Shown one piece after another: positions 42,956 through 44,943 of a DNA stretch of 64,000 nucleotides. The notes under the pieces are model-generated. The model made no database searches. It was not told the DNA's origin and was given only the letters and a program-made list of their open reading frames with translations. This DNA comes from an uncultured Candidatus Saccharibacteria bacterium. Its GTDB lineage: Bacteria; Patescibacteriota; Minisyncoccia; UBA6257; JAUSGH01. The stretch covers positions 120-64,119 of the forward strand of contig CAYJQG010000001.1 in the NCBI GenBank assembly GCA_964372325.1, written 5' to 3'. The position numbers and the translations under genes are program-made. Position 1 is the first letter of the stretch, and every line of letters begins with the position of its first letter.

Positions 42956-43975
42956 ATGAAGAAGGCTGTGGTAGACGCACCGCAAATTGTGCATCGTCGA
43001 TTTTTAAGAGTATTTGAACTGTTCGATAACACTCCGGTGCGTATTCCGCTCGTAACGATTCGTGGGCCAAAGCGTGGACCAACGGTGGTTATTATCGCAG
43101 GGGTGCATGGCGAAGAAGTGATTGGAGTTGCGGTGGTACTGCGCATCATCGAGGAGATAAAGTTAAGGCGAGGTACGGTCTATATTATTCCGGCGGCGAA
43201 TATGCAGGGCTTGAGCCAGGGTTTTCGTTTTGTACCATTGGGCGAAACGACAAAATGGGGAAATTTGAATAGAGAGTTTCCTGGTTCACCGAACGGCGAT
43301 CCTACCGAGCGCATCGCATACGCCATTTCGGAAAAAATCGATGAATTGCTGCCAAGACCTAGTGTGATTATCGATCTGCACGCAGATGCGCATCGTTCAA
43401 TCCCGTTTACATTACTCGATCGCTTGGTGCATCGTAAAAATAAAGCACTTATTGCAGAGACGCGTGCCCTTGCAGAGGCATTTGGTGTAACGGTGTGCGG
43501 AGATGATTCATTAAAGGAATATATTGAGGATGAAGGAGAAAAAACATTGACCGGATCTTTATTTAACATACAGCAGCGCCCAGCGTTTGTTGTGGAGCTT
43601 GGTGGGCCAATGGTTGTGAATAAAGAGTTTGAAGAAATTGGTGTATGTGGGGTGAAAAACATACTGTATGCACTAGGAATGCTCAAGGGTGATTGGGAGC
43701 AGAAAATTGCAAAATCAAAAATTTGCACATCGTACCCGCTACGCACGCACGCCATTAATGCTGGTGAGCGATCGGGGTTTGCACGTTACGAAGTTGATCC
43801 TGGAGATAAGGTTGCAAAAGGAGACCGTATCGCAAAAATCGTTGATGTGTTTGGGAGGGTAAAGGAAGAGGTGCGGTCGCCGCGGGAGGGTTTCGTGATT
43901 TCGTTGGGGTATAGTGCGGTAGTGCAACCGGGTGCAATCATCGCAATGCTCGCAGTCCGAGATTATAACCCGTAA
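42956..43975 (+). CDS. succinylglutamate desuccinylase / aspartoacylase (AstE/AspA) family zinc deacylase
   Basis: IIAGVHGEEVIGV zinc-binding HxxE motif and family-wide conservation. Canonical SD aaggaggg 9 nt upstream of ATG 42956. Confidence 0.75.
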   Translation: MKKAVVDAPQIVHRRFLRVFELFDNTPVRIPLVTIRGPKRGPTVVIIAGVHGEEVIGVAVVLRIIEEIKLRRGTVYIIPAANMQGLSQGFRFVPLGETTKWGNLNREFPGSPNGDPTERIAYAISEKIDELLPRPSVIIDLHADAHRSIPFTLLDRLVHRKNKALIAETRALAEAFGVTVCGDDSLKEYIEDEGEKTLTGSLFNIQQRPAFVVELGGPMVVNKEFEEIGVCGVKNILYALGMLKGDWEQKIAKSKICTSYPLRTHAINAGERSGFARYEVDPGDKVAKGDRIAKIVDVFGRVKEEVRSPREGFVISLGYSAVVQPGAIIAMLAVRDYNP

Positions 43976-44002
43976 ATACGAAAAATCAGGGAATAATAAA
44001 TT

Positions 44003-44029
44003 CCTAGCAGATGCTAGGTTTTTTTGTCA
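44003..44029 (+). terminator. intrinsic terminator after the deacylase gene
   Basis: cctagca-ga-tgctagg-ttttttt. Confidence 0.8.
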
Positions 44030-44040
44030 TAATAGAAAGC

Positions 44041-44943
44041 ATGGATAAAGATATATTTTATATTCCCGAAGAAACAGAAACGATATTCCAACGCAAAGAA
44101 GGACGTTTGCAAGTTTGGGAGACGAAGGATGTGCGTATATTGCAAGTAGAGGGAGAAAAAATTCGTGAAGAATTGGCGGGTGTTATTGCACGAGTACGGA
44201 AAAAGAAGTTGGGCCGTATCGGTGATGTAATAGTATGGCGTGTCGATGGCTCATTGATCCGAGACGCGATTGACGACGATTATACTACCGGCGGACATGG
44301 CTATCGATATCGCTATATTCCGCTTGATGAAATTTGGATTGATGATAAGTTATGGAAACGTGATTGGCCAGTATTGTGGCACGAATATTCCGAATGGCGG
44401 TTAATGAAAGACGGGATGAATTATAATGACGCGCATGATCAAGCTTCGCGTATTGAAATCACGCTTCGTCGGGGAAAAGAATTTATATTACCGGTGCGTC
44501 ACTTTGAGCAAAAGGCGGTATATAGCTGTGGTGCTGTGGCTCTGCGTATTGTACTAGATTTTTTTGGCGAAAATTGGAGTGAGGAGATATTGATCGAAAA
44601 AAGTAAGATGAATAGCGAAAAAGGTACTGACGCGAAAGATATCGTTGCTGCTGCATGTGCGTTGGGTTACATGGTAATATGGCGAGAAAATTGGACGGCT
44701 TCAAAAGTGATCCGTGAATTGCGTCGTGGGCGACCGTTTATTGCAAACCTCCAACAGTCACACGAACTTGGCGAAGGGCATTACGTGGTGATTATTGGCT
44801 ATACAGAAAACGAAGAATTTATTATTTCGGATCCGGCACTAAAACATGGCCTGGTAAGGCGTAGCATGAAAGAATTTATTGAGCATTGGTACGAACTTGA
44901 GGATAAAACTCAGCAGGAGGGTATTGTAATGTACAAAAAATAA
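44041..44943 (+). CDS. protein with C-terminal peptidase C39-like (papain-fold cysteine protease) domain
   Basis: QKAVYSCGAVALRIVLDFFG (Cys), EGHYVVIIGY (His), IISDP form the C39-like catalytic arrangement. N-terminal ~150 aa unknown. Confidence 0.6.
   Translation: MDKDIFYIPEETETIFQRKEGRLQVWETKDVRILQVEGEKIREELAGVIARVRKKKLGRIGDVIVWRVDGSLIRDAIDDDYTTGGHGYRYRYIPLDEIWIDDKLWKRDWPVLWHEYSEWRLMKDGMNYNDAHDQASRIEITLRRGKEFILPVRHFEQKAVYSCGAVALRIVLDFFGENWSEEILIEKSKMNSEKGTDAKDIVAAACALGYMVIWRENWTASKVIRELRRGRPFIANLQQSHELGEGHYVVIIGYTENEEFIISDPALKHGLVRRSMKEFIEHWYELEDKTQQEGIVMYKK

What the first reader, a model, noticed from the sequence alone, without database searches (positions are those of the whole stretch)
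42956..44943. AstE/AspA-family deacylase and C39-like cysteine peptidase downstream of the dikinase operon, both with canonical Shine-Dalgarno sequences that are rare in this genome
Most genes here have no recognisable SD. The deacylase has aaggaggg 9 nt upstream, and the 53018 gene and pnp also have strong SDs. Deacylase plus C39-like peptidase next to a phosphotransfer operon could mean processing of a modified peptide or small molecule. The strong SDs may mark horizontally acquired genes or highly expressed ones.
Basis: partly seen in the sequence, partly recalled or inferred. Interest (0 to 1): 0.5.

Follow-up and report, generated by a model that had tools for sequence, protein, structure and literature searches.

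The report
Deacylase paired with two-domain C39 peptidase
Two neighbouring native genes of a small-genome (Patescibacteria-like) bacterium, a zinc deacylase and a double-glycine-type cysteine peptidase carrying a previously unnamed extra domain, probably work together as a peptide- or amide-cleaving pair; they are not connected to the dikinase operon next door, and only the deacylase has a Shine-Dalgarno site.

Summary

The SD claim is half right. The deacylase has AAGGAGG 9 nt upstream, and a relative keeps an SD there. The C39 gene has no SD: it follows a terminator-like hairpin and a -10-like CATAAT 7 nt before the ATG, which suggests a leaderless mRNA. Three relatives share this layout.

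SD sites are rare in the window (9 of 57 starts, about background). Codon usage and GC3 of both genes are typical, so nothing points to recent acquisition.

The dikinase operon is separate. A terminator lies between, it is missing from the closest relative, and elsewhere it occurs without these genes.

New findings:
- The C39 protein has a ~95-aa His/Glu-rich N-domain matching no Pfam, NCBIfam, PHROG, PADLOC or PDB entry. The domain has about 2,600 cluster representatives and also occurs in phage polyvalent-type proteins.
- Orthologous C39 genes sit beside an amidohydrolase of four different types (COG3608, short M14, M20, C45/AAT).
- One phage-like contig fuses the N-domain to an M14 domain near a C39 gene.

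Likely a two-step cytoplasmic hydrolytic module; substrate unknown.

The parts
42773..42800 (+). Intrinsic terminator closing the dikinase / PTP-like / small-protein operon (ATCCCCGTAATACGGGGAT followed by T7)
   Evidence: 8-bp stem, 5 G-C pairs, T-run; sequence.
42828..42864 (.). Perfect 18-bp palindrome (CCCCAATATTTGGAAGTC / GACTTCCAAATATTGGGG) in the spacer; role unknown, unique in the window
   Evidence: It dominates the fold of the spacer (z = -5.6).
42887..42916 (+). Sigma-70-like promoter candidate for the deacylase (TTGACG, 18 nt, TATCCT with upstream TG), implying a leader of about 30 nt
   Evidence: This is a consensus match only, not shown to function.
42940..42947 (+). Shine-Dalgarno site AAGGAGGG of the deacylase
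   Evidence: (-11.4 kcal/mol). Relative L001 has GGAGGT 6 nt before its ATG.
42956..43975 (+). AstE/AspA-family (COG3608-type) zinc deacylase, 339 aa, cytoplasmic. Invariant residues: H51/E54/H142 (zinc ligands by family knowledge), E214 (catalytic), N105 of the NLNR motif. C-terminal beta-barrel domain.
44003..44026 (+). Terminator-like hairpin CCTAGCAGATGCTAGG followed by T7, directly after the deacylase stop codon
   Evidence: Relatives L001, L095 and L007 have an equivalent hairpin with a T-run.
44028..44033 (+). -10-like hexamer CATAAT, 7 nt before ATG 44041; predicted leaderless start of the C39 gene
   Evidence: Same layout in relatives: TATAAT +6 nt (L001), TATGAT +6 nt (L095), TATACT +7 nt (L007).
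44041..44484 (+). N-terminal region of the C39 protein. Helical lead-in (aa 10-52) plus the unnamed ~95-aa domain (aa 53-143, nt 44197-44469), with invariant R74, D80, G84, G85, H86, R89, Y90, E97-I-W-I100, H114, E115, E118, M122, Y128, H132, E139.
44485..44943 (+). Double-glycine-type C39 cysteine peptidase domain (aa 149-300). Q157, C163 (TGT 44527-44529), the His of GEGHY and the Asp of SDP are present. The stop codon is included.

Best explanation
These are two native, vertically inherited, cytoplasmic hydrolase genes of a Patescibacteria-like genome. They form a loosely coupled hydrolytic module and have nothing to do with the dikinase operon upstream.

Gene 1 is a COG3608 (AstE/AspA) zinc amidohydrolase. 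It appears to be made from its own promoter on a short leader with a strong SD.

Gene 2 is a 300-aa protein made of an unnamed His/Glu-rich domain fused to a catalytically complete double-glycine-type C39 peptidase domain. It is probably translated from a leaderless mRNA that starts just after a terminator-like hairpin.

Inferred mechanism:
1. The C39 domain makes an endo-cleavage at a Gly-Gly-type site in a cytoplasmic peptide or protein. The N-domain supplies substrate recognition or a second, metal-dependent activity.
2. The neighbouring amidohydrolase hydrolyses the terminal amide (N-acyl-amino-acid or C-terminal residue) of a product.

Shown here: gene identities, catalytic residues, the fold, the translation signals, independence from the dikinase operon, and the recurrent genomic association of the C39/N-domain with an amidohydrolase.

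Inferred only: that the two enzymes act on one pathway, the order of the steps, and the substrate. Salvage of peptides or muropeptide-like compounds is the most economical guess.
For: Identity of the genes:
- Pfam and NCBIfam hits.
- Deacylase: closest solved relative is DoeB, 6TWM, E 4e-19. H51, E54, H142 and E214 are invariant in 18 homologues.

Coupling of the two genes:
- Deacylase followed by C39 is conserved in relatives L001/L094 and L095 (deacylase 65-66% identical).
- Orthologous two-domain C39 genes (45-56% identical) lie co-directionally, 27-65 nt from an amidohydrolase of a different family: Peptidase_M20 in L009 and L011, AAT/C45 Ntn-hydrolase in L016-L018, and a short M14-like protein in L013.
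- In L006 a deacylase 48% identical to the window's occupies the same Pyr_redox_2-to-PGK slot that M20 or AAT plus C39 occupy in L009, L011 and L016-L018.
- On a phage-like contig the N-domain is fused to an M14/AstE-like domain (P0063), and a C39_2 gene lies two genes downstream.
- N-domain and C39 are either fused or encoded by adjacent genes in many Patescibacteria and DPANN loci.

Native status: typical GC3 and codon usage; synteny with dnaG-rpoD-DUF5667-alaS-dut is kept in L001, and with dnaG-rpoD in L007 and L013.

Translation signals.
Against: - No substrate was identified. No double-glycine precursor gene is nearby or anywhere in the window.
- A terminator-like hairpin and a separate promoter between the two genes suggest they need not be co-expressed.
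- In more distant lineages (the WWE3-type loci L019-L025, plus L014, L021, L026, L031) the two-domain C39 gene sits among unrelated, mostly housekeeping genes with no amidohydrolase beside it.
- Deacylase homologues at 31-48% identity lack a C39 neighbour.
- The closest relatives' C39 proteins (L001, L095) lack the N-domain, so that domain is not obligatory.
- The short M14-like protein in L013 scores below Pfam's gathering threshold (21.9 against 25).
- Shared ancestry of synteny inflates the number of loci. The independent events are the three or four switches of amidohydrolase family and the one fusion.
Confidence: 0.55

Rival explanations
1. The two genes are unrelated neighbours. Each is an independent housekeeping hydrolase that happens to sit upstream of dnaG-rpoD, and the adjacency reflects inherited gene order only.
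For: - A terminator-like hairpin and separate start signals lie between them.
- Many C39/N-domain genes have no amidohydrolase neighbour.
- Many deacylase homologues have no C39 neighbour.
- Patescibacterial genomes are compact, so chance adjacency is common.
Against: - Four different amidohydrolase types (COG3608, short M14, M20, C45/AAT) lie beside orthologous C39 genes.
- An independent N-domain-M14 fusion lies near a C39 gene on a phage-like contig.
- With only a few such amidohydrolases per roughly 1,000-gene genome (my rough estimate, not computed), repeated independent adjacency is unlikely by chance.
Confidence: 0.27
2. The deacylase and C39 peptidase process a modified (for example phosphorylated) peptide or small molecule made by the adjacent dikinase operon. 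The cluster was horizontally acquired, and the strong SD sites mark this.
For: - Physical proximity: the operon ends 190 nt upstream.
- The operon's second and third genes and the deacylase all have strong SD sites (41575, 42240, 42956).
- The dikinase operon itself looks accessory: the best homologue is 41% identical, it is absent from L001, and it lies downstream of two tRNA genes.
Against: - An intrinsic terminator and a promoter-like site lie between.
- L001 keeps deacylase-C39-dnaG but has ParA-ParB-L28 upstream instead of the dikinase operon.
- Dikinase plus PTP-like operons in L111 and L112 have neither gene nearby.
- Composition of both genes is typical of the window.
- The C39 gene has no SD.
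- No precursor ORF was found.
Confidence: 0.04
3. The C39/N-domain gene is a domesticated module from the conflict systems of mobile elements (phage polyvalent-protein type). With the amidohydrolase it acts in defence or counter-defence, or as a processing protease. One example would be removing a Gly-Gly-linked (ubiquitin-like) or acyl modification from proteins, rather than nutrient salvage.
For: - The N-domain occurs in polyvalent-type proteins: GNAT, ART-PolyVal, C39 and 2x N-domain in P0098, on the phage-like contig L093 beside Zeta-toxin, Tpt1-like and Ro60/TROVE genes.
- It also occurs in a 2,039-aa protein of jumbo phage Rctr197k together with InPase and 2H domains.
- Other fusions are with SET plus Topo IB, KTSC, NUDIX, Sua5, XkdF protease and a kinase-like domain.
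- C39 enzymes cleave after Gly-Gly (family knowledge).
Against: - In the window and its relatives the gene is chromosomal, in stable housekeeping synteny and compositionally native.
- No PADLOC defence model matches.
- No ubiquitin-like, E1/E2-like or toxin gene was seen next to it.
- The top structural matches are bacteriocin-leader peptidases, not deubiquitinases.
Confidence: 0.14

Closest known systems
DoeB, N-alpha-acetyl-L-2,4-diaminobutyrate deacetylase (AstE/AspA family, COG3608; PDB 6TWM/6TWL)
   Same: Same length and two-domain layout: catalytic domain plus C-terminal beta-barrel. Alignable over residues 27-334 (E 4e-19). HxxE...H zinc site, catalytic Glu and NLNR motif are conserved.
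   Different: Scores 91 bits against NCBIfam's DoeB equivalog cut-off of 403. No ectoine-degradation genes are nearby. The partner gene is a C39 peptidase. The substrate is therefore not inferable.
Double-glycine leader peptidase domains of PCAT/AMS transporters (PCAT1 8VP3, ComA 5XE8/3K8U, LahT 6MPZ)
   Different: Not fused to an ABC transporter, and none is adjacent. No leader-peptide gene is nearby. Carries a different, unnamed N-terminal domain. The protein is soluble and chromosomal, in a housekeeping context.
Cytoplasmic muropeptide and peptide catabolism enzymes: MpaA (M14) and PepD (M20) of E. coli (resemblance from my own knowledge, not tested here)
   Same: Cytoplasmic M14- and M20-type amidohydrolases acting after an earlier cleavage step. 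The short M14 proteins linked to the C39/N-domain (L013, P0063) have MpaA-like length and motifs, with a weak MpaA hit (E 0.49).
   Different: No sequence-level membership: the MpaA NCBIfam hit of the deacylase has E 0.06. No Ldc, AmpD or epimerase genes are nearby. The C39 partner has no counterpart in that pathway.
Polyvalent proteins of phages and conjugative elements (Iyer et al. 2017, PMC5512222)
   Same: The N-domain occurs in multi-enzyme proteins of this type, with ART-PolyVal, InPase, 2H, GNAT, KTSC and peptidase domains.
   Different: The window protein is a small two-domain chromosomal protein, not a polyvalent protein. A term search of that paper (no occurrence of C39 or papain-like) did not find the domain, but I did not read its full domain catalogue.

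Membership tests
AstE/AspA (succinylglutamate desuccinylase / aspartoacylase) superfamily, COG3608-type deacylase | Significant match to the family's catalytic-domain model | tested here: met
   PF24827 at 72.3 bits against a cut-off of 25, E 5e-20.
AstE/AspA (succinylglutamate desuccinylase / aspartoacylase) superfamily, COG3608-type deacylase | HxxE...H zinc ligands and catalytic Glu | tested here: met
   H51, E54, H142 and E214 are invariant in 18 homologues and align with DoeB 6TWM. The assignment of roles rests on family knowledge.
DoeB / AstE / AspA / MpaA specific enzymes (NCBIfam equivalogs) | Score above the curated equivalog cut-off | tested here: not met
   DoeB 91.3 against 402.7; aspartoacylase 17.6 against 180; AstE 11.9 against 170; MpaA 12.3 against 157.
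Peptidase C39 (double-glycine leader peptidase) | Family model match and papain-like C39 fold | tested here: met
Peptidase C39 (double-glycine leader peptidase) | Catalytic Gln (oxyanion hole), Cys, His, Asp | tested here: met
   Q157, C163, the His of GEGHY and the Asp of SDP are conserved in the 24 full-length homologues, with rare Q-to-E and D-to-N exceptions.
Peptidase C39 (double-glycine leader peptidase) | Fusion to, or adjacency with, an ABC exporter (PCAT/AMS architecture) | tested here: not met
   300-aa soluble protein. Its neighbours are the deacylase, a small membrane protein and dnaG.
Peptidase C39 (double-glycine leader peptidase) | Cognate precursor peptide with a Gly-Gly leader encoded nearby | tested here: not met
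   No free-standing small ORF in 42700-46000. A leader-pattern scan of the window gave only spurious hits inside a long gene. A precursor elsewhere in the genome cannot be excluded.
PA2778-family C39 peptidase (NCBIfam NF033920) | Score above the equivalog cut-off | tested here: not met
   35.5 bits against 150.
Zincin-like metallopeptidase (considered for the N-domain) | HExxH motif and zincin fold | tested here: not met
Single operon with the upstream dikinase / PTP-like genes | Co-transcription and conserved co-occurrence | tested here: not met
   Terminator at 42773-42791 and a promoter-like site. Absent from L001. L111 and L112 have the dikinase operon alone. Transcription itself is not testable here.
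SD-led translation initiation | Anti-SD-complementary motif 5-10 nt upstream of the start codon | tested here: met
   Met for the deacylase (AAGGAGG, -11.4 kcal/mol). NOT met for the C39 gene (+0.2 and +0.4 kcal/mol at its two candidate starts).
Polyvalent protein (phage / conjugative-element effector) | Large multi-enzyme polypeptide in a mobile-element context | tested here: not met
   The window protein has 300 aa, sits in native synteny and has native composition. Only the N-domain is shared with such proteins.

The most novel reading that the evidence does not exclude
The ~95-aa His/Glu-rich N-domain (DxDF-x2-GGH-x2-RY ... EIWID ... HExxE ... AH ... E) is a new catalytic, probably metal-dependent, domain. 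Together with a double-glycine-type C39 peptidase and an exchangeable amidohydrolase (COG3608, short M14, M20 or C45) it would form a previously unrecognised hydrolytic system. That system would be shared between ultra-small prokaryotes (Patescibacteria, DPANN) and phage polyvalent effectors. One possible role is reversing a peptide-, acyl- or ubiquitin-like modification of proteins or metabolites.
Probability: 0.2. Interest if true: 0.7.

Novelty: new variant of a known kind. Interest (0 to 1): 0.42.

Why it matters
As written, the finding is mostly ordinary. It describes two native hydrolase genes, only one of which has an SD site, with no tie to the dikinase operon and no sign of recent acquisition.

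The follow-up adds three things:
1. A stand-alone cytoplasmic double-glycine-type C39 peptidase fused to a domain absent from Pfam, NCBIfam, PHROGs, PADLOC and the PDB. The domain family is sizeable (about 2,600 representatives at 50% identity) and spans Patescibacteria, DPANN archaea, several other phyla and phage polyvalent-type proteins.
2. A recurring genomic partnership of this protein with amidohydrolases of four different types. This gives a testable two-enzyme hypothesis for organisms that must scavenge building blocks.
3. A worked example of how translation signals are distributed in a genome poor in SD sites: apparently leaderless first genes, and SD sites on leadered or operon-internal genes.

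If the N-domain proves catalytic, it would define a new enzyme family.

Tried and rejected
- Look-up of the window's own deacylase in the contig index found nothing on record. The listing of cluster members gave no names or accessions.
- Rfam found only two tRNAs in the whole window and nothing in 42700-45950 at E <= 1. There is therefore no known riboswitch or leader RNA before the deacylase. The low folding energy of the spacer (z = -5.6) comes from the 18-bp palindrome.
- The 73-aa gene upstream of the deacylase in L001/L002 was considered as a precursor peptide. Its sequence reads as ribosomal protein L28-like (my reading), so I rejected it.
- No double-glycine leader ORF was found.
- A profile of the N-domain against PDB sequences found nothing. 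PHROGs and PADLOC found nothing meaningful.
- tblastn against phage genomes found the N-domain only in jumbo virus Rctr197k. The C39 domain was found only in two uncultured phages.
- Neighbour clustering over 80 loci found no universal partner family. The associations are clade-specific.
- Literature searches (C39 with Patescibacteria; leaderless/SD with CPR; polyvalent proteins) turned up no description of this domain or gene pair.
- The horizontal-transfer idea was rejected on composition and synteny.
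Full report
**1. What is at the coordinates**

The window has about 45% G+C, and most genes lie on the + strand. Region 42956-44943 holds two + strand ORFs.

ORF 42956-43975 (339 aa) is an AstE/AspA-family deacylase.
- It matches Pfam AstE_AspA_cat at 72.3 bits against a cut-off of 25.
- Its closest solved relatives are the DoeB N-acetyl-diaminobutyrate deacetylase structures 6TWM/6TWL (E 4e-19, alignable over residues 27-334) and structural-genomics 'succinylglutamate desuccinylase/aspartoacylase' entries.
- It falls far below every NCBIfam enzyme-specific cut-off, for example DoeB at 91 against 403.
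- In 18 homologues H51, E54, H142, E214 and N105 are invariant. By family knowledge these are the zinc ligands, the catalytic Glu and part of the NLNR motif.
- My reading of the sequence shows no signal peptide.

The second ORF matches Peptidase_C39_2 (58.9 against 24) and Peptidase_C39 (49.1 against 22) over its C-terminal half only.

**2. Translation and transcription signals**

The deacylase has AAGGAGG at 42940-42946, 9 nt before ATG 42956 (-11.4 kcal/mol with the anti-SD). A relative 66% identical (L001) has GGAGGT 6 nt before its start.

Upstream of the deacylase lie, in order:
- an intrinsic terminator that closes the dikinase operon (42773-42791 plus a T-run);
- an 18-bp perfect palindrome (42828-42864);
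- a promoter-like site TTGACG, 18 nt, TATCCT with an upstream TG (42887-42916).

The C39 gene has no SD at either candidate start.
- ATG 44011 lies inside a terminator-like hairpin (44003-44018 plus T7).
- Homologue N-termini align with ATG 44041.
- ATG 44041 is preceded by CATAAT and 7 nt, the geometry of a leaderless mRNA.
- The same layout of hairpin, T-run, -10-like hexamer and 6-7 nt before the ATG occurs before the orthologous gene in L001 (TATAAT), L095 (TATGAT) and L007 (TATACT).
- In a sister clade (L016-L018) the gene instead has AAGGAGG and a leader.

Across the window, a 4-mer SD core precedes 9 of 57 first-ATG starts, against 40 of 318 internal ATGs (p = 0.32). A -10-like hexamer at leaderless spacing precedes 13 of 57 starts, against 30 of 318 (p = 0.006).

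So SD sites really are rare. The likely reason is that many first genes are leaderless, while SD sites occur on leadered or operon-internal genes (41575 and 42240 are examples). This last point is inference.

**3. Native or acquired?**

For the deacylase, GC3 z = -0.22 and the codon-usage likelihood z = +0.08. For the C39 gene, GC3 z = -1.43 and the codon-usage z = +2.13, which means more typical than average.

In L001 the order deacylase, C39, small minus-strand gene, dnaG, rpoD, DUF5667, alaS, dut matches the window. Both genes are therefore native.

**4. Relation to the dikinase operon**

The operon consists of:
- 39342-41588, a PPDK-like protein with ATP-grasp and swivelling domains but no PEP/pyruvate-binding domain;
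- 41575-42243, a DSP/PTP-like phosphatase;
- 42240-42764, a small protein.

It ends at a terminator. In L001 the genes upstream of the deacylase are ParA, ParB and an L28-like gene instead. The best dikinase homologue is only 41% identical. In L111 and L112 the dikinase plus PTP-like operon stands alone. No link is supported.

**5. The C39 protein has two domains**

An alignment of 27 homologues (36-56% identical, about 300 aa) shows two parts.
- The C-terminal domain keeps Q157, C163, the His of GEGHY and the Asp of SDP.
- The N-terminal domain has invariant R74, D80, G84, G85, H86, R89, Y90, E97, I98, W99, I100, H114, E115, E118, M122, Y128, H132 and E139.

AlphaFold2 models are confident: full length pLDDT 94.5, pTM 0.90; N-domain alone 91.4.

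A profile search of 1.84 billion cluster representatives finds 2,602 proteins at E <= 0.001. Most are 210-250-aa proteins with two tandem copies. In the duplicated proteins P0048 and P0049 the first copy has lost the HExxE...H residues while the second keeps them. Such a pattern is common for an active site, although this is inference.

The genome scan found 300 relatives.
- Fused N-domain plus C39 proteins occur in Patescibacteria-labelled MAGs and in Woesearchaeota.
- Separate adjacent genes for a tandem N-domain protein and a C39 protein occur in about ten loci.
- Tandem N-domain proteins alone occur in DPANN, Ignavibacteria, Bacteroidetes, Chloroflexi and others.

Longer proteins fuse the N-domain to C39, GNAT, ART-PolyVal, SET plus topoisomerase IB, KTSC, 2H phosphoesterase, NUDIX, Sua5, XkdF protease, a PI3/4-kinase-like domain and an AstE/AspA-like M14 domain. 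One of these sits on a phage-like contig (L093). Another copy of the domain lies in a 2,039-aa protein of jumbo virus Rctr197k, together with InPase and 2H domains. The domain is therefore a promiscuous module that is also used in polyvalent-type phage proteins (concept from PMC5512222).

**6. Is the deacylase functionally tied to the C39 gene?**

Evidence for:
- Deacylase followed by C39 recurs in L001/L094 and L095.
- Orthologous two-domain C39 genes are preceded, co-directionally and 27-33 nt away, by a Peptidase_M20 gene (L009, L011) or by an AAT/C45 Ntn-hydrolase gene (L016-L018).
- In L013 the C39 gene is followed 61 nt later by a short M14-like protein with HGDE...NR...HED motifs. Its Pfam score is below threshold (21.9 against 25), and it is 27% identical to the M14 part of P0063.
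- In L006 a homologous deacylase fills the same slot between Pyr_redox_2 and PGK that M20 or AAT plus C39 fill elsewhere.
- P0063 fuses two N-domains to an M14 domain, and a C39_2 gene lies two genes downstream on a contig that also carries Cpn10 and many small ORFs.

These amount to three or four independent switches of amidohydrolase family plus one fusion. That is hard to explain by chance.

Evidence against:
- The association is missing in WWE3-type and other lineages, where the neighbours are EF-G/EF-Tu, VIT1, Obg, GmrSD, glycosyltransferase and others.
- It is also missing for more distant deacylases.
- The window's two genes are separated by a terminator-like hairpin.
- L001 and L095 lack the N-domain.

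**7. Mechanism**

Best reading (confidence 0.55): a cytoplasmic two-step hydrolytic module. The C39 domain cleaves at a Gly-Gly-type site, helped by the N-domain through recognition or a second, metal-dependent activity. An N-acyl-amino-acid or carboxypeptidase-type amidohydrolase then finishes the product.

All four partner types hydrolyse an amide next to a free carboxylate (family knowledge). This fits trimming of a cleavage product.

The substrate is unknown. No Gly-Gly precursor is encoded in the window and no ABC exporter is attached, so bacteriocin export is not the role.

**8. Verdict**

The pair is a new variant of known kinds: a known deacylase family and a known peptidase fold, but with a new domain architecture and a new pairing.

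Interest is moderate (0.42). The stated finding is largely ordinary, but the unnamed domain and its recurrent partnership with C39 and an amidohydrolase are worth a bench test.

Noticed in passing
window 388-396, 1025-1123, 3482-3600, 9321-9474, 15523-15531, 57404-57907 (single partial copies at 14393, 42895, 46524): The 9-mer TTTCGTAGC occurs 22 times (0.62 expected). It is part of longer intergenic arrays (TTCGTATATTCGTA, about 5 nt, TTTCGTATTTCGTAGC, optionally TGCGTATTTCGTAGC), in tandem and in inverted orientation. Copies often end 7-12 nt before the ATG of ribosomal-protein and other genes, for example 1133, 3608 and 57920. This could be a lineage-specific promoter or regulatory element, or a repeat family.
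   Followed up: partly
window-wide, e.g. starts 60779, 49321, 54171(-), 32032(-), 18218, 44041: TATAAT- or TATACT-like hexamers lie 6-7 nt before the ATG at 13 of 57 gene starts, against 9% of internal ATGs (p = 0.006). This suggests widespread leaderless mRNAs and would explain why SD sites are rare.
   Followed up: partly
window 39342-42764 (with 36555-38939 and tRNA-Ser/tRNA-Pro at 35896-36312): The operon holds a PPDK-like dikinase lacking the PEP/pyruvate-binding domain, a DSP/PTP-like phosphatase (weak PTP-SAK hit) and a small protein. It is conserved as a unit in other Patescibacteria (L111, L112), but the best homologue is only 41% identical and it is absent from relative L001. Together with two no-Pfam genes (one with 37% G+C) it lies just downstream of two tRNA genes, so it may be an accessory island. 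AAGGAGG at 39349 sits inside the longest ORF, and the true start codon of the dikinase is unclear.
   Followed up: partly
window 45041-45155 and 45836-45950: A direct repeat of about 115 nt (98% identity over its first 49 nt, 84% over its last 49 nt) flanks the minus-strand 190-aa two-TM membrane protein gene (45184-45756) that lies between the C39 gene and dnaG. The repeat unit is itself partly palindromic.
   Followed up: no
window 42828-42864: A perfect 18-bp inverted repeat with a 1-nt loop lies between the dikinase-operon terminator and the deacylase promoter-like site. It is unique in the window and has no T-run after it. Function unknown.
   Followed up: partly
L006 5316-9450; L009 5481-10019; L011 5444-10024; L016-L018: In related Patescibacteria, the slot between a divergent Pyr_redox_2 gene and pgk holds interchangeable amidohydrolases (COG3608 deacylase, M20, or AAT/C45). 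These are followed by the two-domain C39 gene or, in L006, by a 121-aa protein with no family hit.
   Followed up: partly
L019, L020, L023, L024: Several WWE3/Patescibacteria genomes carry two adjacent paralogous copies of the two-domain C39 gene. Some copies have an insertion of about 40 aa in the C39 domain.
   Followed up: no
window 53018-53452 and 26970-27905: Two genes have unusually high GC3 (z = +2.8 and +3.2). The first (144 aa, AAGGAGG SD) has no Pfam hit. Both are compositional outliers, unlike the deacylase and the C39 gene.
   Followed up: no
L093 (ENA ERZ4201063 contig, 32 kb): A phage-like contig encodes a GNAT, ART-PolyVal, C39 and 2x N-domain polyvalent-type protein next to Zeta-toxin, Tpt1/KptA-like and Ro60/TROVE genes. 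This looks like an RNA-repair or conflict gene set.
   Followed up: no
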